From Candidatus Jordarchaeia archaeon (GTDB taxonomy: Archaea; Asgardarchaeota; Jordiarchaeia; Jordiarchaeales; Jordiarchaeaceae): a stretch of DNA of 16,952 nt. Numbering within the stretch: position 1 is the first letter of the stretch; the number at the start of each line of letters is the position of its first letter. The notes beneath the pieces are model-generated. The model was not told the origin of the DNA, searched no databases, and was given only the letters and a program-made list of their open reading frames with translations. This document shows, in pieces, positions 193 to 13,669 of the stretch. The stretch is taken from assembly GCA_029856435.1 (NCBI GenBank), contig JAHQXB010000142.1:1-16952 (forward strand). The letters run 5' to 3'. Made by a program: the position numbers and the translations under genes.

Positions 193-1185
193 CTATGATA
201 TTTTGGCTCTCAGTTTCAGAGGTTTTCCCAGAGATTTGTCATATACGAAAAGTAGATCACCCGAGGCAAGATCCATATCTTCAATTTTTGTATCGTCTTC
301 AACAAACCTAGTTTTGTGGATAACCCTAATAGGAGCAACTAATCCTAAAGTTGCAGTAAGACGGTTTTTTAGTTCTCGAATAGTTTCTTTTTTGTCAATT
401 GCATATTCTATCCCTTCCAATCTGTATTCGTCACTACAGATGATACATTTAGGGTTCCTTTCGAGTTTGATTGTGGTGAAGCTTTGGCTTAACCCATCAT
501 AAAATAGATAATTGTCAATCAGCGTAGGTAAATCTAGTAATATTTTGATGGTTTCTTGCGCTTGAATGCCACTGAGGACAGCGCTAATTGTTGAAACTCC
601 GGGGAACTTTGGAGGTTCAACATTTTCCCTCTTCTTCCCCGGGGGTGTACACGATTTTTGGAATCTTTCACGCGGGAGAAGAGGTTGACATTCAAGGCAG
701 GGAGTCCGGTAGGGTATTATGACCTGAATGTTGCCGTACCATCCATACATCCCCCCATGCACTAAAGGTTTTTTTAAACCAACACATAATGAGTTCAGCC
801 AACGTCTAGCCTCGAAGGTATCAAGTCCGTCTACAATTACGTCACTTTCCTCAAAATATTTACGGGGGACTTCAGTCAAATTTTTACTCAGATCTACAAT
901 GTGGATACTCGGATTAATCTCTCTAAGTTTTTGTGCGGCTATTTTGGCTTTAAATTCGCCAATATCTTTTTCAGTAAATAAAAGCTGGCGATTGAGATTA
1001 GATAATTCAATTGTATCCATATCTACCAGTATTAATTTTCCTATACCCATTAATGATAGGAAAACTGCAACCATCGAACCTAATGCGCCAACTCCTGCTA
1101 TGAGTACTGTAGATTGCTGTATTTTCCCCTGATTCCACCCTTCAAGTATTTCCTGCCGATGATACCTACCTTCAACTTTTTCCAA
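193..1185 (-). CDS. Ubiquitin-activating enzyme E1-like protein (ThiF/MoeB/UBA fold with C-terminal ubiquitin-fold domain)
   Basis: Motifs RYHRQ, GVGALGS (nucleotide binding), DxDxIELSNLNRQ, two Zn-type CxxC pairs (CLEC, CIIC) and a candidate catalytic Cys in KSCT. The C-terminal ~70 aa has a beta-grasp pattern. Start moved from the ORF-track position 1251, which overlaps the E2 gene, to TTG at 1185, preceded by an SD-like GTGAGG (330 aa). Confidence 0.92.
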   Translation of the reverse strand: MEKVEGRYHRQEILEGWNQGKIQQSTVLIAGVGALGSMVAVFLSLMGIGKLILVDMDTIELSNLNRQLLFTEKDIGEFKAKIAAQKLREINPSIHIVDLSKNLTEVPRKYFEESDVIVDGLDTFEARRWLNSLCVGLKKPLVHGGMYGWYGNIQVIIPYRTPCLECQPLLPRERFQKSCTPPGKKRENVEPPKFPGVSTISAVLSGIQAQETIKILLDLPTLIDNYLFYDGLSQSFTTIKLERNPKCIICSDEYRLEGIEYAIDKKETIRELKNRLTATLGLVAPIRVIHKTRFVEDDTKIEDMDLASGDLLFVYDKSLGKPLKLRAKIS

Positions 1186-1229
1186 GGTTAATTCCTCACA
1201 AAAAGTAAGGTACGACAGTAAAAAAAGGA

Positions 1230-1688
1230 TTACTTTTTGAGACGGTCCCAAGTAGCATACTTTTTAACGTATTCTTTTGCGGTCTTACTGAATTCCTCCA
1301 GATTCCTATTCATTTGTCTGGCTGCTTCCGTATTAAGGGGAGAGTTAGGATTTGGGTAATTAAGAAGATTCCTTAAAGTCTCTACAACGCCTGCCATGCT
1401 CATAGTGGGTAGCCAGTCCTTGCCAAGAATATTTACACACACATTTTTTTGAAATATATTGGGATGCCAAATGTTCGTTTTCCAAATTACTTTTGGAGGT
1501 TCGTAGGGGAATTTTCTTGGAAGTATTATCTCTATCTCAAATACCCCTCCATCGTATATTCCCGTGCCTATAATAAATCCAGCCCACCTTCTCAAATCGC
1601 CATCAACTGGATGAAAGGATGGTTCCTCTTCTTCCATTATTTTAGCTTCTTGTACTAGTCTTGACTCATATTCCTCATCTGATAGTAT
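1230..1688 (-). CDS. Ubiquitin-conjugating enzyme E2 (UBC fold)
   Basis: Motifs YDGGVF, FPYEPPKV, WHPNI...VC (HPN plus catalytic Cys), DWLPTMS and PNPNSPLN. The frame stays open upstream of ATG 1637 and encodes the otherwise missing helix 1 (LSDEEYESRLVQEAKIM). The start is placed tentatively at ATA 1688, 7 nt after GGTGG. The product call is firm and the start is uncertain. Confidence 0.9.
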   Translation of the reverse strand: MLSDEEYESRLVQEAKIMEEEEPSFHPVDGDLRRWAGFIIGTGIYDGGVFEIEIILPRKFPYEPPKVIWKTNIWHPNIFQKNVCVNILGKDWLPTMSMAGVVETLRNLLNYPNPNSPLNTEAARQMNRNLEEFSKTAKEYVKKYATWDRLKK

Positions 1689-1773
1689 CTTGATCCCACC
1701 AATACACTTGCCTTTTTTAAGCAGATACTAACCCCTAAGGGGAGGAGTTAACTTATACAGTATCTATTTTGAA

Positions 1774-1792
1774 TTATAAGTTTAAAAATATA
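1774..1792 (-). promoter_or_regulatory. Candidate internal promoter for E2-E1
   Basis: The minus strand reads ATATATTTTTAAACTTATAA in an AT-rich patch about 90 nt upstream of the proposed E2 start. Confidence 0.3.
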
Positions 1793-1980
1793 TTTGGGGA
1801 GACAAACGCGGTCTAGTGTTTTAAAAATAGCAACTTAAGGTTGAGGCTTTTTGTGGGGTATTAAAACTGCTTCTATTTAGAAAGTTTGTTAGCTTGAGAA
1901 ACTCCCAACAGTTAACGTTAAAGAAAAACTATTAAACCCATCATTCCTCAAAAAACAACCACACACATACATTGTGTAGT

Positions 1981-2179
1981 GCAGCCGACTCCTCAGCACG
2001 GAATGCGGGAAGTTCGAAAAAGCCCAAAAAGAGGGCAGGGTCACAACCGGGAACATCCCCCACCGAAAACAGAGGAGATGTGCCTGCCTCAACCGTTCCC
2101 CGGGCGAAAGCCTCCCCATGAAACTTGAGGGAGGAAGACCCAAAGTTACGCAAAGTTAACGGGGGGTCAGAACGGTTAC
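1981..2179 (+). ncRNA. Candidate structured non-coding RNA, family unassigned
   Basis: About 57% GC over 1981-2180 versus about 32% at 1861-1920, with no credible protein. The ends pair: 1983-1987 with 2173-2177 and 1988-1994 with 2161-2167, with G.U pairs valid on + only. Nested stems are 2031-2039/2083-2090, 2053-2057/2077-2081, a GGC-GAAA-GCC hairpin at 2103-2112, and 2111-2116/2129-2134. Loops are A-rich or GNRA-like on +. A TATA-like CTATTAAA lies at 1929-1936. Confidence 0.45.
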
Positions 2180-2409
2180 CCTCCCTCTGTGCGTGTAACT
2201 AGGTATAGTTTGTCATAGGGTTGGACGCCGGCTTTTCCTAATGTGGTACCATCTTCAAGTTGTTGCCCTCTATATACTAAGATTAAAGTGGAAGCGGGAA
2301 CTCTTTTTTTCTTAGCTACCTGAGACTTTAGAGTCTCTATTTCGGTATCTTCACTTACATCAAACTCTAAAACTTCGCCACCAATTGCAGAAACTATCTT
2401 CACTATCAT
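2176..2409 (-). CDS. Ubiquitin-like modifier (77 aa, C-terminal GG)
   Basis: Collinear with ubiquitin at a +1 offset: DTEIETLK, LVYRGQQLEDGTTL (ubiquitin LIFAGKQLEDGRTL), LYLVTRTEGG-stop. SD-like GGTGA upstream. Neighbours are E1, E2 and RING genes. Confidence 0.93.
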   Translation of the reverse strand: MIVKIVSAIGGEVLEFDVSEDTEIETLKSQVAKKKRVPASTLILVYRGQQLEDGTTLGKAGVQPYDKLYLVTRTEGG

Positions 2410-2416
2410 TTTGTTC

Positions 2417-2668
2417 TCACCATTTTCTAACTTCTCTAATGTTTAGTGGTTTTCCACAATTAGGGCAGAAGCCCTTTATCTTCAACCACTCCAAAAGATG
2501 GTCGCGATGTGCTGGGAGCCCGCAAAAAGGACAATAAACTACCCTTTCTTCCTCTTTCACTTTTAAATTACACACGATACACTTTGCACTCCTAGTCCAA
2601 TCCCAAGTACCTACCACCTTGACATCGGTTATTATAAATCTGTCGGAACCGGCTCCCTGCACTTGCAC
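2417..2668 (-). CDS. Small RING-finger protein (putative E3 ligase), Rbx1/Apc11-like
   Basis: Ligand pattern C30-x2-C33-x12-C46-x2-C49-x4-H54-x2-H57-x10-C68-x2-C71, with EWLK..CP. GTG start after GAGGT. Ends 7 bp before the ubiquitin start. Confidence 0.88.
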   Translation of the reverse strand: MQVQGAGSDRFIITDVKVVGTWDWTRSAKCIVCNLKVKEEERVVYCPFCGLPAHRDHLLEWLKIKGFCPNCGKPLNIREVRKW

Positions 2669-2705
2669 TTACCTCTCTATGTTTATCTATATCTAGCATT
2701 TTTCC

Positions 2706-2720
2706 AATTATAATTTTTTT
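2706..2720 (-). promoter_or_regulatory. Candidate BRE/TATA promoter of the RING-ubiquitin unit
   Basis: The minus strand reads AAAAAAA-TTATAATT about 40 nt upstream of the GTG at 2668. Position and sequence only. Confidence 0.35.
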
Positions 2721-2734
2721 GATTCAGACATTCA

Positions 2735-2843
2735 GGTGATGTAAAATCGTTCGATTTCGCCTCAAAAAGGGGGGTGTTTATAGGGCTTCTTTCACGATTT
2801 GAAGCTTTATTAGGGAGATGGAATCGAATAAATCTGCATCACC
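2735..2843. mobile_element. MITE (109 bp, non-autonomous) with IS1-like terminal inverted repeats and 10-bp target-site duplication
   Basis: Left end GGTGATGTAAAATCGTTCGAT (2735-2755) versus the reverse complement of the right end GGTGATGCAGATTTATTCGAT (2823-2843): 16/21 identical. A perfect direct repeat CAGACATTCA abuts both ends (2725-2734 and 2844-2853). No ORF inside. Confidence 0.8.
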
Positions 2844-3209
2844 CAGACATTCAAATGCGAGGTGAGATTTGTATATTTTGTTATTTGGCCGTGTAGATTT
2901 TCCCAACTTCTCTTGTTATTTTTAACTTGGGAAAAGTTTGTACCTCCTGTAAATATTTAAAATTAGGAGTCTACTCCCTTTCCAAAAGCGAGTCTTCTAC
3001 TTAGGGCTTATTTTTAAAAATTTTAGCTATAAACTTGTTTATTAAACTATTCTTGTAGATTCCCTAAAGAAGCTTGTTCACATCATAGATTATTATTACT
3101 CCTAAAGGTGTTTTTAATTGAAATCCTTACACTTTGGGCAAGACTTTTAGCTTTCCTATGATATACTTAATTTATCCAGATAAAACACAATTCCTTTGAG
3201 GGCTGGCAT

Positions 3210-3665
3210 TTGTCAGAAGAAAAAGAGAAAGTTAAAATTCAGATTGAGGCCATCAAAACACCGGCGGGTGAGGTTCCCACAGTGGAATCTTTGAAAAGGG
3301 TGGTAGACGGTTTAAACACCCTAAATTCTGACATAGTAAATCTAAGTATGAATGTAGCAAGTAACATGTCTGCCATAGATAAAGAGCTCAGAAATATCCG
3401 TAAACTAGTTGCGGAGGGAACAGTTTCCATTGAAGTTATGTCACAGAAACTGGAGAAGGTTAGTAAACAGTTAGAGGCGTTAGTCAAAAGTGAAAAAGAG
3501 AAATGGGAAACACTCCAAGGAATTATGATGGACATAGCTGAAATTATAAAGGGTTTTCAAACCACACTTGAAGAGTCCTCATCAAGGGTGGACCAGAGAA
3601 TAAGTGAAACTCTCAAAGCCCTCGCAGAAATAATTGCCGTTTCTGCGAAAGAGGAACAAAAATAA
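3210..3665 (+). CDS. Hypothetical coiled-coil protein (151 aa)
   Basis: TTG start after a GAGGG SD-like motif. Heptad-rich helical sequence (e.g. MSQKLEKVSKQLEALVKSEKEKWETLQ). No TM segment or signal peptide evident. Confidence 0.8.
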   Translation: MSEEKEKVKIQIEAIKTPAGEVPTVESLKRVVDGLNTLNSDIVNLSMNVASNMSAIDKELRNIRKLVAEGTVSIEVMSQKLEKVSKQLEALVKSEKEKWETLQGIMMDIAEIIKGFQTTLEESSSRVDQRISETLKALAEIIAVSAKEEQK

Positions 3666-3707
3666 CATTGAAATTATTTGATTTTCTAAACAAAACCTAG
3701 ATACGTA

Positions 3708-3877
3708 TTGTTATGAAAAAGCTTTTCATTCTTTATCTAAAACGCGAAGCTTATGTTGGTTTGTTATGAAAAACTTGAGGTTTTCATTCTTTATCTAAAA
3801 CGCATAAGCGTATGTACGTTTACAATGAAAAAATTTGGTTTTCATCATTTGTCTAAAATGCTTTAGCGTATGTGTGT
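3708..3877. repeat. Three degenerate tandem repeats (53-59 bp), each with an ATGAAAA...TTTTCAT inverted repeat
   Basis: Units start at about 3708, 3761 and 3820. TTTTCATTCTTTATCTAAAACGC is identical in units 1 and 2 and degenerate in unit 3. All units end in a AGC(G/T)TATGT-like motif. Confidence 0.85.
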
Positions 3878-4049
3878 TTAGTTCGTAGGGGACTGATCTA
3901 ACATCATTCGCTTCTTTCCAAAAGGCGGTTGATTTTAAGGCCCCTCTACTTGAACAATTAACTTTTATACATGTTTAATACCAATCATATTTTTGTCTGT
4001 ATTTTTTGGGAGCGGTATGTGGAGGACAAATAAAAAAGAGAATGGAAAT

Positions 4050-5831
4050 TTACTCGATTGAAAGTTGGGGCTCTTTCCTAGTATATTTGCCTTCGCCTTC
4101 AACAGTATAGGATAGTGAAATCTCCTGTCCCGGCTCTATTCTCATAAATTTCCATGTAAGCACTAAGCCGTCGATAGTTTCAGTAACTTTTGGCGGCATT
4201 TCCTCTGGTTTCCACTCCACCAAACTGAAACCGGGGGCTACAAAGTCCTTTACTGTGACGTTTGCGATGGAAACTTCTCCGGTATTCACTATTGCCAGTG
4301 GAATTATGTGTTGTCCTGCTTTTGCGCCCGGAGATATAGCCTCTTTGTATATTCTTACAGCGCGTCGAGTATATTTGATTCCAATTTTTGGAGGGTTTGT
4401 TTCCAGCTCCAAGTATTCTACATTGGGTCCTGGTGATGTTGTGTTTGCCGTTGCTCTTAGTGGGGTTGTATAGTTCTTCTCAGGCTTTGGCTCCCAAGCC
4501 ATAATGGGGTAAACAAATTTTACATACTGTCCGGGATTTAATCCACCCACAAAGTTTTTCAGGTTCCTGACAAAAACCGTGAATCCGTGTCTTGTTGCAG
4601 GATTATCGTCGTTGGGATTGGTTATGATTTCTATGCCTTGAGATAACTCCTTTTCATTTACATAAACTTTTACGCGTTCATGTGCTGGGGGTTTGAAGTC
4701 TTCTGGAATGGTGTCGTAGATTGTTACCTGATCCAGCTGGGCGCTGCCAACATTTGACACTTGTACCGTTACAGTCATAGGTGTTTTGTCGTAGGCATCA
4801 ACTTGGGGCGGGGTGAATGTTTTCTCAACCAGAATCCTCTCCACTGGTAGTATAGTGTCCTCCTTTGTAATCTTGGCATATACGTGTCGTGTTACCTCTT
4901 TAACCACTTTGTAATCGACGTTTGTTTCAAAAACTGGGATTGTAGGACTTTTTATGCTAAATTTGTATTCCCAAGATTGCCTTGGTGGAATATCCTTGTT
5001 GGGCTCCAGAACAAGGAGTGGCTCCTTCTTTTCTCCTTTTATTTGGAAGACTTCCACTTTGAGAAGCCTTTGCAGAAATTCGCTGGTGTTCATAAATTCG
5101 AGTGTGCAATCCCAAGTTGATGGTTGGCTGGGGGATTCTGCCGGTTCCAGCGCAAATCTGCTGTCAGAAACAGAAATAATGTCAGGATTGAGGAGCGATC
5201 TGGTTCTATCCTTAATGTGGTACTCTGCGATAACTTTGCCCGCAGCAATTGGGTCTATGGACTCTGCGGTAACGCTAAATTTAACGACTAGTGATGCTTC
5301 ACTTCCCGGAGATAGTTCGAAGTTCTTCCATACAACTTCCCTCGTTTCAGGTTCAAATTCTGCGGTTCCCGTGTTAGGCGGTTCTATTTCTGGATCTCCA
5401 AAACCCTTCGGTATGAACTTTCTAACCTTTACCCTGTCTATGTACGCGTCTGTGGGGTTACTAACCGTTATAGTGCTACTCACGGGCATGGGTCTACGGT
5501 AGACCAGCGCCCAGTTAACTATATCATCTTCGTAGCAGGTGTCTATTACTTCCTTCAATTTAAGTACTGTTTCCTCAACAGGTACGCTATACTCCATAGT
5601 CCATTTTTTGCCTGCCTGTACTGCACCAACTGGTATGACACTCTCCTTCAAGGAAGTGGTTTCGATGCCTCCTAATCGAAGCTCAGCATTCCATATTCTA
5701 TTCTTCGAACTATTGTTGTTTACGGAAATGACGCCTTTTACATTTAGACTTTTGATTTCATGTTTCTCTGTGATAACGCAATCAACGTTCTCAGTTACAT
5801 CCACATTAAGTTTTATTCCTTCTGCGCTCAC
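4050..5831 (-). CDS. Mu-adaptin homology domain (MHD)-like protein with additional Ig-like (DUF11-type) domains
   Basis: The N-terminus LNVDVTENVDCVI...VKGVISV...ELRLG and the segment GTAEFEPETREVVWK...PGSEASLVVKF resemble the mu1/mu2 C-terminal domain. Two further beta-sandwich repeats follow (VTVQVSNVG...IYDTIP; LAIVNTG...VKDFV...LTWK...IEPGQ). No signal peptide. CDS certain, annotation moderate. Confidence 0.7.
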   Translation of the reverse strand: MSAEGIKLNVDVTENVDCVITEKHEIKSLNVKGVISVNNNSSKNRIWNAELRLGGIETTSLKESVIPVGAVQAGKKWTMEYSVPVEETVLKLKEVIDTCYEDDIVNWALVYRRPMPVSSTITVSNPTDAYIDRVKVRKFIPKGFGDPEIEPPNTGTAEFEPETREVVWKNFELSPGSEASLVVKFSVTAESIDPIAAGKVIAEYHIKDRTRSLLNPDIISVSDSRFALEPAESPSQPSTWDCTLEFMNTSEFLQRLLKVEVFQIKGEKKEPLLVLEPNKDIPPRQSWEYKFSIKSPTIPVFETNVDYKVVKEVTRHVYAKITKEDTILPVERILVEKTFTPPQVDAYDKTPMTVTVQVSNVGSAQLDQVTIYDTIPEDFKPPAHERVKVYVNEKELSQGIEIITNPNDDNPATRHGFTVFVRNLKNFVGGLNPGQYVKFVYPIMAWEPKPEKNYTTPLRATANTTSPGPNVEYLELETNPPKIGIKYTRRAVRIYKEAISPGAKAGQHIIPLAIVNTGEVSIANVTVKDFVAPGFSLVEWKPEEMPPKVTETIDGLVLTWKFMRIEPGQEISLSYTVEGEGKYTRKEPQLSIE

Positions 5832-5979: not shown

Positions 5980-6669
5980 CTAACTTATACTAAACTCTGT
6001 TCCTGCTAGCCATTCTACTCTTATTTCATCACCTGGCTTCATTTTCCTGAAATTGGTTTTGGGAGCTACGGTTTGGGCATGGGTAAAGAAGTAGTCTATT
6101 TCATGCTCGGTTTTAATATGCATGGGTATGGCCAGCTGTGGTTTAATGTCTGCGATGGCGTTTAGTGATTGGCTACTGTTAAAGGCTTCTGTTTCGTCTA
6201 CTCCAATAAGCAAAACATCGATTGGATACTGTTCTAATAGTCCCTTAGTCATGGCATCCCCGAGGTTTGCTACTCGCACTTTGTCTATTTCTACTATGAA
6301 GCATAGATTGGGGGTGTTAATTGGCTCTCTGGATGGGCCGTGCCTAAGTTCCAGAGCTGTTATTTTTATGTTAGGTCTCTCAAAGGTTTCTCCGCTTTGT
6401 ATTTTCCTTACAAGCCATTCCGGCGCGCCTTCCTTTAGGGCTACTTTGATAGTTTGCTCGTCCCCCAGCAGGAATGCCTTTTGTTTTGCGGAAAGTTGGG
6501 CGGCGTTACCCAAATGATCCCTATGCTCATGCGATACACAGATAATATTTGTTTTTTCAGACTCGGGCACCAATGCTTTATTACTCACTATACCTGGATC
6601 GAAAATAACGCTGACCTTAGGCGAGTAGAATTTGAATGCCGCGTGGCCAAAGTACTTTAATACTGGCAT
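5980..6669 (-). CDS. Metallo-beta-lactamase-fold metal-dependent hydrolase (UPF0173/UlaG-like)
   Basis: Motifs YFGHAAF, IFDPG, HEHRDH (HxHxDH), LGDA and terminal IPMH. The start is placed at ATG 6669 (GGTGA 7 nt upstream) rather than 6708. Confidence 0.9.
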   Translation of the reverse strand: MPVLKYFGHAAFKFYSPKVSVIFDPGIVSNKALVPESEKTNIICVSHEHRDHLGNAAQLSAKQKAFLLGDEQTIKVALKEGAPEWLVRKIQSGETFERPNIKITALELRHGPSREPINTPNLCFIVEIDKVRVANLGDAMTKGLLEQYPIDVLLIGVDETEAFNSSQSLNAIADIKPQLAIPMHIKTEHEIDYFFTHAQTVAPKTNFRKMKPGDEIRVEWLAGTEFSIS

Positions 6670-9858: not shown

Positions 9859-12525
9859 ATGAGTGAAAAAGTAGGTCTTCTTAAATATATGCAAAAAGAA
9901 CCTACGCCCAAAAAGGAACCTTCTCAAGAAAAAATAGAGGAAATCGAAACCGAAGTTGATGAGGAGGTGAGTGGCGATGAGGAGGAAGAAGTGGAGGTAA
10001 AGTTTGAGGGATTGCCCTACTTTTGCCCCGAAAATTACGGTCCAGGTTTAGTTCTATCGGTGGAGTACGATGGAAAAAGCAATCTGGCATTCGCGCGTTT
10101 ATACGACCCCAAAACCAAAAAGCTCTTTTGCTGGTATGATAATACCAACCACCATCCCTACTGCTACTCCGACCTTGACTGCGAAAAATTACGACAGAAT
10201 AAAAAACTGATGAGCCACGAAGGCTTACTAAACTTTGAAGAAGTCGAAAAATACGATTTGCTCTCCGACAAAACCGTAAAAATGACAAAAATTGTGGCAA
10301 AAGACCCACTAGCCATAGGCGGCAAAACCAACTCCATAAGAGAAATTCTGCCCAAAGCTTGGGAAGCCAGAATCAGATATCACGACAATTTCATCTTCGA
10401 CAGAAACATAATCCCCGGACTCTTCTACCAAATAGAAAAAGGAAACATAATAAAAACTACCACCGAAATTCCCAGCCCCATAAAAAAACAATTGGAAACC
10501 GCCCTAGGAGAAACAAACAAATTCAGAGATGTGCTCGACGAGTTCCTCCCCCTATTCCTAACCCCAGTACCCGACATAAAAAGAGCCGCCATAGACATAG
10601 AAGTCTACTCCCCCATCCAAGACAGAATACCCGACTCATCAACCGCAGAAAACCAAGTAATATGCATATCAATAGTTTCCAGCGAAAACGAGAACAGAAT
10701 TTTGCTCCTAAGGAGAGAAGACGTCGAAGCCGGAGAACGGCCCAAAGGCCTACCCCAAGATGTCAAAATAGAATACTTCAACAGCGAACCCCAAATGTTA
10801 AAAAGGGCCTTCGAAGCCATGAGCGAATACCCCATAATAATCACCTTTAACGGCGACAACTTCGACTTAAGGTACCTATACAACAGAGCCGTCAGACTGG
10901 GCGTCAAAAAAGAAGAAATACCCATAATCCTAACAAACGAATTCGCCTACATGACCACAAGCATCCACATCGACCTATACCGATTCTTCCACAACCGATC
11001 CATCCAAGTCTACGCATTTTCAGACCGCTACAAAGAAGAAACACTGGACGCCATATCAAAAGCCCTACTAAACGTTGGAAAACTCACCCTCAACAAATCA
11101 ATCCACAAATTATCCCTCCTAGAACTCGCATACTATTGCTGGTGGGACTCCCAAGTCACCCTCAAACTAACACAATTCGACGGCAACCTAGTCATGAAAC
11201 TAATCATCCTACTAATGCGCATCTCCCGACTATCCGCAGAAGACCTAACAAGACAAGGAGTATCTTCCTGGATAAAAAACCTGTTCTACTACGAACACCG
11301 CATAAGAAACTACCTCATACCCCTCCCAGAAGACATAAACCGCATAAAAGGAATCGGCGAAACCAAAGCAATCATCAAAGACAAAAAGTTTAGAGGAGCA
11401 ATCGTAGTTGAACCAGAGGCAGGAGTCCACTTCAACGTAGCAGTACTCGACTTCGCCTCCCTTTATCCCAGCATCATAAAAGAATACAACCTGAGCTACG
11501 AAACCGTAAGATGCCCACATCCAGAATGCAGAAAAAACATCGTTCCAGAAACAAACCACTGGGTATGCACAAAACGCAACGGAATAACCTCCATAATAAT
11601 AGGCTTCCTAAGAGACATACGCGTAAAATGGTTCAAACCAAAATCCAAAGACCGCACACTAAAAGAAGAGGAGCGAATATGGAACTCCATAGTCGAAAGA
11701 GCACTAAAAGTGTACCTAAACGCCAGCTACGGAGTCTTCGGCGCCGAACACTTCCCCTTCTATTGCTTACCAGTAGCCGAAAGCACCGCAGCCATCGGAA
11801 GATACGCCATCCAGAGAGCCATAGGCAAAGCCAAATCCCTAGGAATGAAAATAATATACGGCGACACCGACAGCGTCTTCATAAAAAACCCTTCACCCCA
11901 ATCCATTGAAGAACTCAGAAACTGGAGCAAAAAGGAACTCCAAATAGACCTTGAATTGGATAAGGAATACCGCTACGTAGCGTTATCCGACCGTAAGAAG
12001 AATTATCTTGGAGTCTTCAGAGATGGCTCCGTGGACATAAAGGGCCTCACTGGAAAAAAGAGAAACACTCCCCAATTCGCCCAGGAATCCTTCCTCAAAA
12101 TGGTAGAAACCCTAAGCCGGGTCCAATCTCAAGAAGACTTTGACAAAGCCAAAAAAGAAATTCAAGAAATTGCGAGAACCTGCTACAACAAAATAAAAAA
12201 CAAAGAATTCAGCCTAGAAGAGTTTGCATTCCACATACAAATAAATAAACCTCTTCACAGCTATGTTAAGACTACCCCGCAACACGTAAAGGCGGCGAGG
12301 CAACTTACCAAGAATGGGAAGGAGCTTAAACCTGGTGATATAATCTCATTTGTGAAGGTCAGGGGTAAAGATGGTGTACGGCCGGTGGAACTTGCAAGTA
12401 AAGAGGAGATTGATACTGAAAAGTATCAAGAGTACCTTAAATCTACTTTTGAGCAGGTGTTGGATGCGATAGGTATAGATTTCCAAAAAATCATTGGGGT
12501 CACTAGGCTAGATATGTGGGTATAG
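9859..12525 (+). CDS. polB: Family B DNA polymerase (PolB1-type, archaeal)
   Basis: Exonuclease motifs DIEV, FNGDNFD and YCWWD. Polymerase motifs DFASLYPSII, K..LNASYG, YGDTDS and KKNY. No intein. ATG 9859 (GGAG upstream) is preferred over GTG 9823. Confidence 0.97.
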   Translation: MSEKVGLLKYMQKEPTPKKEPSQEKIEEIETEVDEEVSGDEEEEVEVKFEGLPYFCPENYGPGLVLSVEYDGKSNLAFARLYDPKTKKLFCWYDNTNHHPYCYSDLDCEKLRQNKKLMSHEGLLNFEEVEKYDLLSDKTVKMTKIVAKDPLAIGGKTNSIREILPKAWEARIRYHDNFIFDRNIIPGLFYQIEKGNIIKTTTEIPSPIKKQLETALGETNKFRDVLDEFLPLFLTPVPDIKRAAIDIEVYSPIQDRIPDSSTAENQVICISIVSSENENRILLLRREDVEAGERPKGLPQDVKIEYFNSEPQMLKRAFEAMSEYPIIITFNGDNFDLRYLYNRAVRLGVKKEEIPIILTNEFAYMTTSIHIDLYRFFHNRSIQVYAFSDRYKEETLDAISKALLNVGKLTLNKSIHKLSLLELAYYCWWDSQVTLKLTQFDGNLVMKLIILLMRISRLSAEDLTRQGVSSWIKNLFYYEHRIRNYLIPLPEDINRIKGIGETKAIIKDKKFRGAIVVEPEAGVHFNVAVLDFASLYPSIIKEYNLSYETVRCPHPECRKNIVPETNHWVCTKRNGITSIIIGFLRDIRVKWFKPKSKDRTLKEEERIWNSIVERALKVYLNASYGVFGAEHFPFYCLPVAESTAAIGRYAIQRAIGKAKSLGMKIIYGDTDSVFIKNPSPQSIEELRNWSKKELQIDLELDKEYRYVALSDRKKNYLGVFRDGSVDIKGLTGKKRNTPQFAQESFLKMVETLSRVQSQEDFDKAKKEIQEIARTCYNKIKNKEFSLEEFAFHIQINKPLHSYVKTTPQHVKAARQLTKNGKELKPGDIISFVKVRGKDGVRPVELASKEEIDTEKYQEYLKSTFEQVLDAIGIDFQKIIGVTRLDMWV

Positions 12526-12658
12526 AGATTTCCTAGTTAAAATTAATAAGACAGAACATTACTATTACTTCTATTAAGTGTTCTTGTTTAACGTAAACTA
12601 TTTATCAAATATTTGCGTCTTAATATATTAACTGTAAAAATTTTATGAGGCTTTAACT

Positions 12659-13669
12659 ATGGAGCAAGTTCGTAATTTGCTTATTCGGAATGTTCTGCCT
12701 ATAATGAGCCCTGACACTATGAAGGAGGAAAGCGCTGACTCCTTTCTTGCAACGTTCGGGGGATATATGAAACAGATTGCCGCAGTCGCCAAGCATGATT
12801 CTGGTTTTGCCTTATATGAAAGTAACGTGGCTCCTATACATGAAAAGTATGGCGACTTCTTTTCGACGGTTGCGAAGATTACTGAGGCTGCAGGAATTAA
12901 GCTCTATGCGGTTATTTACACCTTTGTAGACAACTACTATGGTGTGGATCCCTCCTATAAGACTTATAATGCTAACGGTGTGGCTAACGAGTATTATGTC
13001 TGCCCCGCCAGGGAGTCCTTCTGGGCTTATCTTAAAAGTGTTACTGAGGAAGTGATTCGGTTTCCTATTGCTGGCATTATACTACTGGGCAATACCTTTG
13101 TGAGGCAGGAGTTTTGCTTCTGTGAGAGTTGTAAAAAGGAGTTCTCAGCAGCGGCGGGAATAGATACGTCTTTCACATGGGATGGATTGAGGGATAATGA
13201 TCAACTCTTTTCCAAGTGGCTGGATTGGCGAGCTGAAAAAATGTACAATGCTCTTTCGGGAATCTATAGTGTAGCTAAGAAGAAGGAGGGATTGGACTTC
13301 TTAATTGGTGTTGATATTGATCCCGAAGTGGGCTACGAGAAGGGTGCCTTCAGGCAGCTTGGACAGGACGTGGAGGCGCTTTCTGGGATATCGGGGCACT
13401 TGCTAGTCAGCATTAACCCGTGGTCTCCTATCTTGCCTAGTCCCGGCTCACCGGAGTATAATATTGAGATTGAGAAAATGAGGTTCATTGATAACATAAC
13501 TGCCCGCAGAAGGAAGGTTTCCTTCAAGTATTGGACTCTGATTAATGAGAATGATTTTGATACGGTTAAGAGTATAGCCACCAGATTCAAAGCCACCAAA
13601 ATAGTTTCGGATTTGGACTTTCCTGAAAAGTACAGAATTTGGAGAGAAGCGCACCTAAGCATAGCTTAA
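12659..13669 (+). CDS. Glycoside-hydrolase-like TIM-barrel protein (GHL10/GHL6-like), possibly non-catalytic
   Basis: Motifs AKHDSGFALYES, DFF...AEAAGIKLYA-like segment, VCPARESFWAYL, CFCESC...F and WLDWRAE. The usual acidic D-G-I-x-L-D strand reads AGIILLGN. Confidence 0.72.
   Translation: MEQVRNLLIRNVLPIMSPDTMKEESADSFLATFGGYMKQIAAVAKHDSGFALYESNVAPIHEKYGDFFSTVAKITEAAGIKLYAVIYTFVDNYYGVDPSYKTYNANGVANEYYVCPARESFWAYLKSVTEEVIRFPIAGIILLGNTFVRQEFCFCESCKKEFSAAAGIDTSFTWDGLRDNDQLFSKWLDWRAEKMYNALSGIYSVAKKKEGLDFLIGVDIDPEVGYEKGAFRQLGQDVEALSGISGHLLVSINPWSPILPSPGSPEYNIEIEKMRFIDNITARRRKVSFKYWTLINENDFDTVKSIATRFKATKIVSDLDFPEKYRIWREAHLSIA

What the first reader, a model, noticed from the sequence alone, without database searches (positions are those of the whole stretch)
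1960..2180. Unassigned ~200-nt structured RNA inside the ubiquitin cluster, antisense to and overlapping the ubiquitin stop codon
Seen: a GC island (about 57% vs about 32%). End-to-end closing helices AGCCG/CGGTT and ACTCCTC/GGGGGGT enclose a multibranch set of hairpins with GAAA, GCAAA and AAAA loops on +. There are mutually exclusive pairings: 2091-2098 with 2170-2177 (8 bp perfect) versus 2095-2100 with 2049-2054 or 2007-2011, and CAACCG is duplicated at 2044 and 2090. Short RNase-P-like words occur in the expected order (GGGAAGTTC, CCGAAAAC, TGAAAC, CAGAA..GGTTA), but spacing and P1/P4 geometry do not fit cleanly. Inference: either a novel trans or antisense ncRNA transcribed from the TATA-like site at 1929-1936, a switchable 3'-UTR element of the RING-Ub mRNA on the minus strand, or a highly reduced RNase P-like or IS-derived RNA.
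Basis: partly seen in the sequence, partly recalled or inferred. Interest (0 to 1): 0.75.

Follow-up and report, generated by a model that had tools for sequence, protein, structure and literature searches.

The report
Gene-less IS607 mini-transposon with guide-RNA end
The GC-rich "structured RNA" beside the ubiquitin gene is one of about 50 decaying copies of a 318-base, protein-free jumping element derived from an IS607 insertion sequence; it keeps the folded guide-RNA scaffold of the TnpB nuclease, which is a known and fairly ordinary kind of element.

Summary
The GC island is real, but it is not a single-copy RNA gene or part of the ubiquitin operon. Window 1858-2175 is a 318-bp insertion. 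Three congeneric genomes have the empty site (TGT-GGG-TTACCC) at exactly this point. The same unit occurs about 50 times in this Asgard genome, with 48 distinct right flanks. It has GG at both junctions and no terminal inverted repeats or target duplication.

A covariance model of its last 128 nt finds low-copy homologues in other Asgard families. There the match overlaps the 3' end of tnpB, ends at a shared ...AGAACGG terminus, and is preceded by a serine-recombinase tnpA. That is IS607 architecture. Twenty-two of 29 modelled base pairs show compensatory changes. The TGGG/GG target matches the published IS607 target and TAM.

The element is therefore an IS607-derived MITE that keeps the left end and the TnpB omega-RNA scaffold. 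A read-out transcript from this copy would carry a guide antisense to the last ubiquitin codons. No intact cognate tnpB was found here, copies are 7-12% decayed, and expression is unshown. The scan reached the same conclusion earlier for other copies in this genome. This is a known kind of element and interest is low.

The parts
1854..1857 (+). Target and TAM-like motif TGGG at the left junction; GG at 1856-1857 is the crossover dinucleotide
   Evidence: Empty sites in G004, G003 and G001 read TGT-GGG-TTACCC. The family left-junction logo is (T/A)GGGG. TGGG with a strict GG is the published IS607 (CboIStron) target and TnpB TAM (PMC10690162).
1858..2175 (+). The 318-bp inserted element, an IS607-derived MITE: interior 1858-2173 plus the right-junction GG at 2174-2175
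   Evidence: Flank alignments to the congeners break at 1859/2174. blastn and nhmmer give about 27 full-length and about 25 partial or interrupted copies. There are 48 distinct right flanks.
1858..1905 (+). Left end (LE), homologous to the LE of a full-length IS607 (tnpA_S + tnpB) in a same-order genome
   Evidence: A 17-nt match at 94% (E=0.03), and by eye an alignment of about 50 nt to G008 locus L084, about 90 nt upstream of its tnpA ATG as read. This is the least diverged region of the family, at 5-6%.
1918..1936 (+). BRE/TATA-like box TTAAAGAAAAAC(C/T)ATTAAA, a candidate internal promoter for + strand transcription
   Evidence: Nearly invariant in 22 of 24 full-length copies. The promoter role is inferred only and no transcription data exist.
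1975..2047 (+). Upstream part of the GC island: 5' part of the RNA candidate, assumed to come from the tnpB 3' coding region
   Evidence: Derivation from tnpB is inferred. By eye, the family consensus here can be read as a zinc-ribbon-like remnant (ADSSQSPECGK). The tblastn match for the window copy lies further right, at about 2052-2138 (E=0.002), while copies in G003 reach E=1e-17.
2048..2175 (+). Conserved omega-RNA scaffold core (model R1). Helices: 2053-2059/2074-2081, 2093-2098/2170-2175 (terminal), 2112-2116/2129-2133, 2137-2141/2164-2168, 2145-2149/2155-2160
   Evidence: The covariance model hits 14 of 151 Asgard genomes. In distant genomes the hit overlaps the tnpB 3' end and stops at ...AGAACGG. 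93% of cells are paired, 22 of 29 pairs show changes on both sides, and 0 of 500 shuffles reach this.
2176..2195 (+). Right flank, which would be the guide segment of a read-out omega-RNA; it is antisense to the stop codon and last codons of the ubiquitin-like gene
   Evidence: The position follows from TnpB omega-RNA architecture, with the guide 3' of the RE (PMC10690162, PMC10055086). The sequence is flanking DNA that is present in the empty sites. Inferred, not shown.
2176..2409 (-). Ubiquitin-like gene (ends ...TEGG-stop). Context only, not part of the element
   Evidence: ORF list. 97% identical to the congeners right up to the insertion point.

Best explanation
Window 1858-2175 (+) is a non-autonomous, protein-free derivative (MITE) of an IS607-family insertion sequence, the family that carries a serine-recombinase TnpA plus TnpB.

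Shown:
- It inserted at a TGGG site directly behind the ubiquitin stop codon, in this lineage only.
- It is bounded by GG on both sides.
- It consists of an IS607 left end, a conserved AT-rich promoter-like box, and the last roughly 200 nt of a former tnpB gene. That stretch is the template of the TnpB guide RNA (omega-RNA) scaffold and ends exactly at the right end.

Inferred:
- A serine TnpA supplied in trans moved it by conservative GG-to-GG recombination.
- If transcribed from the internal box, the RNA would run out of the right end and acquire a guide of about 16-20 nt, UUACCCUCCCUCUGUGCG.... That guide matches the restored empty site TGGG|TTACCC... and would let a compatible TnpB cut that site and restore the element by homing.
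- No intact cognate tnpB was found in this assembly and the copies are 7-12% diverged from their consensus. This copy is therefore most likely a decaying relic whose GC-rich fold is inherited, not a function of the ubiquitin operon.
For: - Copy number: blastn gives at least 40 matches at 76-88% identity. The unit extends from 1855 to 2175. nhmmer gives 76 HSPs and there are 48 different right flanks.
- Boundaries: the left end reads GG|GGTGTTAAAAC and the right end ...CAGAACGG|, with no TIR or TSD.
- Empty sites: three congeners are empty at exactly this point and read ...TGTGGGTTACCC.... A related hot-spring contig also joins 1798 to 2174.
- Parent architecture: covariance model R1 hits the tnpB 3' end in other Asgard families. 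Pfam finds Resolvase upstream, and Cas12f1-like TNB or OrfB_IS605 in the overlapping ORF.
- Shared ends: the ...AGAACGG terminus is shared, and the LE resembles that of G008's IS607.
- Coding remnant: TnpB C-termini match translated MITE copies.
- Structure: compensatory changes occur in 22 of 29 pairs.
- Literature: IS607 TnpA_S and TnpB both specify TGGG with a strict GG, and the scaffold ends ...UCGG (PMC10690162). Stand-alone omega-RNAs and omega-RNA-bearing PATEs are already described (PMC10691335, PMC10055086).
Against: - No full-length parent with matching ends was found in this genome or genus. The assembly has 181 contigs and repeats break it.
- The one IS607-like locus in G000 (C177) has an intact tnpA but a broken tnpB and unrelated ends.
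- Within the family, G-U cells (46) and A-C cells (36) are similar, so the copies themselves give no strand or structure signal.
- The covariation alignment (A2) was fitted to the model, which flatters it.
- Transcription, RNA ends and any TnpB partner are untested.
Confidence: 0.9

Rival explanations
1. A domesticated or still-active guide module. The roughly 48 copies would form a dispersed library of omega-RNAs used in trans by a TnpB or a dead TnpB-like (TldR-type) protein. Alternatively, this copy's outward transcript would act as an antisense RNA on the ubiquitin mRNA 3' end.
For: - The promoter-like box is nearly invariant.
- Paired columns are slightly less diverged than unpaired ones, 7.2% against 11.5%.
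- Stand-alone omega-RNAs can work in trans (PMC10691335).
- G000 carries about 17 TnpB-type zinc-ribbon hits.
Against: - The closest G000 TnpB is only about 28% identical to the omega-RNA-associated TnpBs, and the nearer relics carry stop codons.
- Many copies are truncated or interrupted by other MITEs inside the scaffold.
- Guides are simply the local flanks, with no meaningful second targets.
- The insertion is absent from congeners, so the ubiquitin operon does not need it.
Confidence: 0.06
2. An IS200/IS605 (Y1 transposase) palindrome-associated element (PATE) rather than an IS607 derivative.
For: It has no TIR and no TSD, and carries an omega-RNA at the right end. This was my first guess before testing.
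Against: - GG sits at both junctions and the target is TGGG.
- Full-length relatives carry a Resolvase-type tnpA, not a Y1 transposase.
- No 5'-TTGAT/TTAC-type TAM is conserved at the left flank.
Confidence: 0.02
3. A novel single-function structured RNA of the ubiquitin cluster: an ncRNA gene, a 3'-UTR switch or a reduced RNase P.
For: The GC island lies in AT-rich DNA, has several hairpins with GNRA-type loops, and offers alternative pairings.
Against: It is multi-copy. It is absent from the orthologous locus in three congeners. It has no Rfam match, and its fold energy is not better than shuffles.
Confidence: 0.02

Closest known systems
IS607-family elements with TnpA_S + TnpB + omega-RNA, e.g. 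the Clostridium botulinum IStron (Zedaveinyte et al., PMC10690162)
   Same: GG core dinucleotide at both junctions. TGGG target and TAM. No target duplication. The omega-RNA scaffold overlaps the tnpB 3' end and stops at the right end with ...CGG. Excision is precise and restores TAM plus target.
   Different: This element has lost both genes and is 318 bp long. It has no group I intron. The host is an Asgard archaeon. The scaffold sequence is unrelated at the nucleotide level and matches no Rfam family.
Stand-alone (effector-less) omega-RNAs and omega-RNA-bearing PATEs/MITEs of OMEGA systems (Altae-Tran 2021 as summarised in PMC10691335; Meers et al., PMC10055086)
   Same: A protein-free mobile unit that keeps the transposon ends and the guide-RNA template. 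There are many copies per genome and each has a different flank-derived guide. It would need TnpB and transposase in trans.
   Different: Those described are mostly IS200/IS605 (Y1) derivatives in bacteria and haloarchaea. This one derives from the serine-recombinase IS607 lineage. No compatible TnpB was found in the same genome.
IS607 TnpBs guided by RAGATH-18-derived RNAs (PMC11061315)
   Same: An IS607 TnpB with a conserved structured RNA at the right end.
   Different: No RAGATH-18 hit, or any other Rfam hit, was found on this element even at E up to 10. I read only that paper's abstract.

Membership tests
IS607-family transposable element (non-autonomous derivative) | Insertion at a GG dinucleotide, GG at both junctions, no TIR and no target duplication | tested here: met
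   The empty sites read TGT-GGG-TTACCC and the occupied site reads TGTG-GG-[316 nt]-GG-TTACCC. The junction logos agree.
IS607-family transposable element (non-autonomous derivative) | Homologous full-length elements encode a serine-recombinase TnpA followed by TnpB | tested here: met
   Loci L064/L084 and L078/L083 have a Resolvase ORF (E=4e-19 and 7e-26) followed by a Cas12f1-like TNB/OrfB_IS605 ORF that overlaps the RNA match. L062/L085 shows the same arrangement by ORF inspection only; its tnpB is frameshifted and it was not Pfam-scanned.
IS607-family transposable element (non-autonomous derivative) | Ends shared with an autonomous element in the same genome, so that trans-mobilisation is possible | tested here: not met
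   No G000 locus with tnpA or tnpB shares the MITE ends. LE similarity was found only to an IS607 in a same-order genome. The assembly is fragmented, so absence is not proven.
TnpB omega-RNA (reRNA) scaffold | Lies at or overlaps the 3' end of tnpB and terminates at the transposon right end | tested here: met
   In six full-length relatives the R1 match lies at the tnpB 3' end and ends at ...AGAACGG. The tnpB ORF stop falls from exactly at that end to about 76 nt beyond it. TnpB C-termini align to translated MITE copies.
TnpB omega-RNA (reRNA) scaffold | Conserved secondary structure supported by covariation | tested here: met
   93% of cells are paired, 22 of 29 pairs show double changes, 0 of 500 shuffles reach this, and slid controls give 39-51%. 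Caveat: the alignment was fitted to the model. The in-genome copies alone show no signal.
TnpB omega-RNA (reRNA) scaffold | Transcribed, bound by TnpB, and guides TAM-dependent DNA cleavage | not testable with these tools
   The only RNA-labelled runs hold fragments from relatives, as contigs without strand information.
IS200/IS605 PATE | Y1 transposase partner, subterminal hairpins and a conserved 4-5-nt TAM 5' of the LE | tested here: not met
   The partner is a serine recombinase and the junction motif is (T/A)GGG with a GG core.
Rfam families (RNase P, SRP, RAGATH-18, H/ACA) | Score at or above the family's gathering threshold | tested here: not met
   There are 0 gathering hits in the window. 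The best hit is Pab91 at 17.6 bits against a threshold of 71.

The most novel reading that the evidence does not exclude
The family is not dead. Its conserved internal promoter would drive omega-RNAs from about 48 loci, used in trans by a divergent or unassembled TnpB or TldR-like protein. This copy's guide is antisense to the last ubiquitin codons. It would then either police the empty site behind the ubiquitin gene or dampen expression of the eukaryote-like ubiquitin operon.
Probability: 0.05. Interest if true: 0.6.

Novelty: new member of a known kind. Interest (0 to 1): 0.2.

Why it matters
Mainly as a correction. A striking GC-rich "structured RNA" inside an Asgard ubiquitin operon is transposon debris, so it should not be read as part of eukaryote-like ubiquitin regulation.

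It also documents that IS607-type elements, like IS605, spawn gene-less MITEs carrying an omega-RNA in Asgard archaea, with the same TGGG/GG target logic that was shown experimentally in Clostridium. The covariance model gives a handle for annotating these elements, which break assemblies and mimic ncRNA genes. The 48 dated insertions and the precise empty sites could serve as markers for strain and species history in this genus.

Tried and rejected
- Rfam: gathering mode on the whole window and E-value mode on 1700-2400 gave nothing usable. A weak H/ACA (Pab91) match on the minus strand was rejected as noise.
- tRNA/tmRNA scan: none.
- Single-sequence folding on both strands was not significant.
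- RNAalifold on the in-genome alignment gave a poor consensus. The wobble-based strand test within the family was uninformative, 46 against 36 cells.
- Search for an autonomous parent. "Solo" left or right ends are mostly at contig ends or next to unrelated genes. nhmmer found no copy next to a tnpB. R1 run with filters off on all 12 G000 tnpB loci gave only 11-14-bit hits beside two broken tnpB relics. The C177 IS607-like locus shares no ends with the MITE.
- IS110 bridge-RNA and IS200/IS605 readings were considered and dropped, because the flanks are diverse and the junction is GG with a serine recombinase partner.
- Expression: the best DNA holder is probably the source sample. RNA-labelled runs held only fragments from relatives at under 95% identity, as contigs, so nothing can be said about transcription.
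- Guide matches elsewhere in the genome were only chance-level 16-20-nt hits, plus one assembly duplicate.

Full report
**Observation.** The window carries, on the minus strand, an E1-like gene (193-1251), an E2 (1230-1637), a ubiquitin-like gene (2176-2409, ending TEGG-stop) and a RING gene (2417-2668). Between E2 and Ub lies a GC island: 51-57% GC in 100-nt windows over about 1950-2250, against 29-35% in the adjacent intergenic DNA.
- Rfam finds nothing at gathering thresholds in the whole window. In E-value mode over 1700-2400 there is only noise. ARAGORN finds no tRNA or tmRNA.
- Folding 1960-2200 alone is not better than dinucleotide shuffles on either strand (z -1.24 and -1.49).
The 8-bp pairing 2091-2098/2170-2177 is real. 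The proposed outer closing helices are specific to this copy and are not conserved in the family.

**It is a dispersed repeat.** BLAST of 1940-2200 against the window's own genome (3.54 Mb, 181 contigs) gives more than 40 matches at 76-88% identity.
- A wider query shows that the repeated unit runs from about 1855 to 2175. A profile search gives 76 HSPs, corresponding to about 27 full-length copies plus truncated and interrupted ones.
- Forty-eight right ends have different flanks, apart from one assembly duplicate.
- The source-sample DNA run shows summed contig depth of 400-5,000 over the element against about 70 over the flanks.
- Copies begin GG|GGTGTTAAAAC and end ...GGGTCAGAACGG|. They have no terminal inverted repeats and no target duplication, and T or A precedes the left G-run.
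- Copies are 7-12% diverged from their consensus, with mean pairwise identity of 86% and a transition:transversion count of 465:178.

**It is an insertion at this locus.** The orthologous loci of three congeneric genomes align to window 1200-1859/1860 and 2174-2700 at 94% and 97% identity, with the two blocks abutting.
- The G004 sequence reads ...GAGGCTTTTTTGTGGGTTACCCTCCCTCTG.... The empty site is therefore TGT-GGG-TTACCC, and the occupied site is TGTG-GG-[316 nt]-GG-TTACCC.
- A contig from a related hot-spring organism also bridges 1798 to 2174.
- The ubiquitin stop codon (2178-2176) is flanking DNA. The element ends one base before it.

**What it derives from.** No copy in this genome lies next to a tnpB or any transposase gene. 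I built a covariance model (R1: 129 positions, 29 pairs) from the last 128 nt of 30 copies from this genus and searched 151 Asgard genomes.
- Fourteen genomes have matches. In other genera and families the matches are low-copy and sit at the 3' end of an ORF of about 400 aa on the same strand. In several cases that ORF follows one of about 150-215 aa beginning ...YARVSSxDQKxDLERQ.
- Pfam identifies the long ORFs as TnpB (Cas12f1-like TNB, E=1e-17 to 1e-20; OrfB_IS605) and the short ones as serine recombinases (Resolvase, E=4e-19 and 7e-26). This is IS607 architecture.
- All six full-length relatives that I fetched end in ...(C/T)(T/C)AGAACGG, like the MITE. They also share GATGTG...CCGTTC...GAAAGC...ATGA... 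landmarks.
- The left end of the G008 element (GGGGTTCTGAAACTGCTTCTGTTTAG...AAGTTTATTAAC) aligns with the MITE left end.
- TnpB C-termini match translated MITE copies. G003 copies reach E=1e-17 and the window copy E=0.002.

**RNA structure.** Within the genome the copies give no strand or covariation signal: 46 G-U against 36 A-C cells.
- The model-based alignment of 23 homologues from about a dozen genomes gives a clear signal. 93% of cells are paired, 22 of 29 pairs show changes on both sides, 74 such cells compare with 21±4 in shuffles (0 of 500), and slid controls give 39-51%. The alignment was fitted to the model, so this flatters the result.
- The compensatory swaps are nevertheless visible by eye: GACCC/GGGTC becomes GACTC/GAGTC or GGAGAC/GTCTCC, and CTCCC/GGGAG becomes CCCCCC/GGGGGG or CTCTCC/GGAGAG.
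- The terminal helix CCGTTC/GAACGG is invariant.

**Comparison with the literature.** For the C. botulinum IStron (IS607 family), TnpA_S integrates at TGGG with a strict GG requirement and excises precisely. TnpB requires a TGGG TAM, and the omega-RNA scaffold ends ...UCGG (PMC10690162). The present element matches each of these sequence features: a TGGG target, GG junctions and a scaffold ending ...ACGG. Effector-less omega-RNAs that work in trans, and PATE elements that encode omega-RNAs, are already described (PMC10691335; PMC10055086).

**Mechanism: shown and inferred.**
- Shown: the element's identity, boundaries and target motif, its copy number, its parentage from IS607 tnpB/RE, and conserved structure of the 3' 128 nt.
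- Inferred: mobilisation in trans by a serine TnpA. G000 has intact Resolvase-type ORFs at C177 and C53, but the C177 element has a broken tnpB and unrelated ends.
- Inferred: transcription from the conserved TTAAAGAAAAAC(C/T)ATTAAA box at 1918-1936.
- Inferred: a 3' guide equal to 2176-2195, which is antisense to the last ubiquitin codons and matches the empty site next to its TGGG.
- No intact cognate TnpB was found. The best G000 TnpB is about 28% identical, and two nearer relics carry stop codons and have only 11-14-bit R1 matches beside them. Public RNA data were uninformative.
- The most likely status of this copy is a decaying relic.

**Earlier scan notes.** After I had formed an IS200/IS605-type guess, notes on other copies in this genome proposed an IS607-derived mini-transposon with 56-58 copies. 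I took that as a lead and tested it independently. It holds.

**Verdict.** This is a new member of a known kind of element. It has low intrinsic interest, but it corrects the annotation of the ubiquitin locus.

Noticed in passing
G000 contigs C22:19112-19287, C138:38012-38191, C126:317-497, C45:1272-1450, C136:6690-6866, C84:26402-26575, C150:276-454, C132 (two copies): A second MITE of 176 bp with 14-bp TIRs (GGCGATAGATTCGC) has 26 near-full copies at about 92% identity. Nine of them sit in the same CCCCGGG hairpin of the IS607-MITE scaffold, in both orientations. Its other insertions also lie at CCC|GGG-type sites, so it seems to prefer that target and repeatedly disrupts the omega-RNA scaffold.
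   Followed up: partly
G000 C150:~470-670 and C106:~6510-6660: A third MITE of about 154 bp, with long subterminal palindromes (ATTACCCATAAGTGCTATGGGTAAT...), is nested in two other copies of the element. It has 16 near-full copies at about 78% identity.
   Followed up: partly
G000 C177:~11290-13100 (minus strand): An IS607-like locus has an intact 214-aa MerR-HTH/Resolvase tnpA, a tnpB broken into several ORFs, and a weak (11-bit) R1-like match downstream. Its ends are unrelated to the MITE. Further Resolvase hits lie at contig ends (C53, C35), which suggests unassembled multi-copy IS607 elements.
   Followed up: partly
window 1945-1952 and 2015-2036, minus strand: Read in the sense of the ubiquitin operon, the inserted element brings oligo-T tracts (T6, T5, T5) between Ub and E2. 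In archaea these could terminate read-through, and the congeners lack them. The effect on E2/E1 expression is untested.
   Followed up: no
window 2049-2054 / 2095-2100: GGGAAC can pair with GTTCCC and so competes with the terminal helix for GTTC. The GGAAC word is also the conserved W-N codon pair of the TnpB GAWN motif in full-length relatives. Its conservation may therefore be protein-coding legacy, or it may form a pseudoknot arm of the omega-RNA. This is unresolved.
   Followed up: no
window 2725-2853: An earlier first-reader note reports a 109-bp IS1-like MITE with a 10-bp TSD beside the RING gene promoter. I did not check it. Together with the elements above, it would make this locus and genome unusually MITE-rich.
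   Followed up: no
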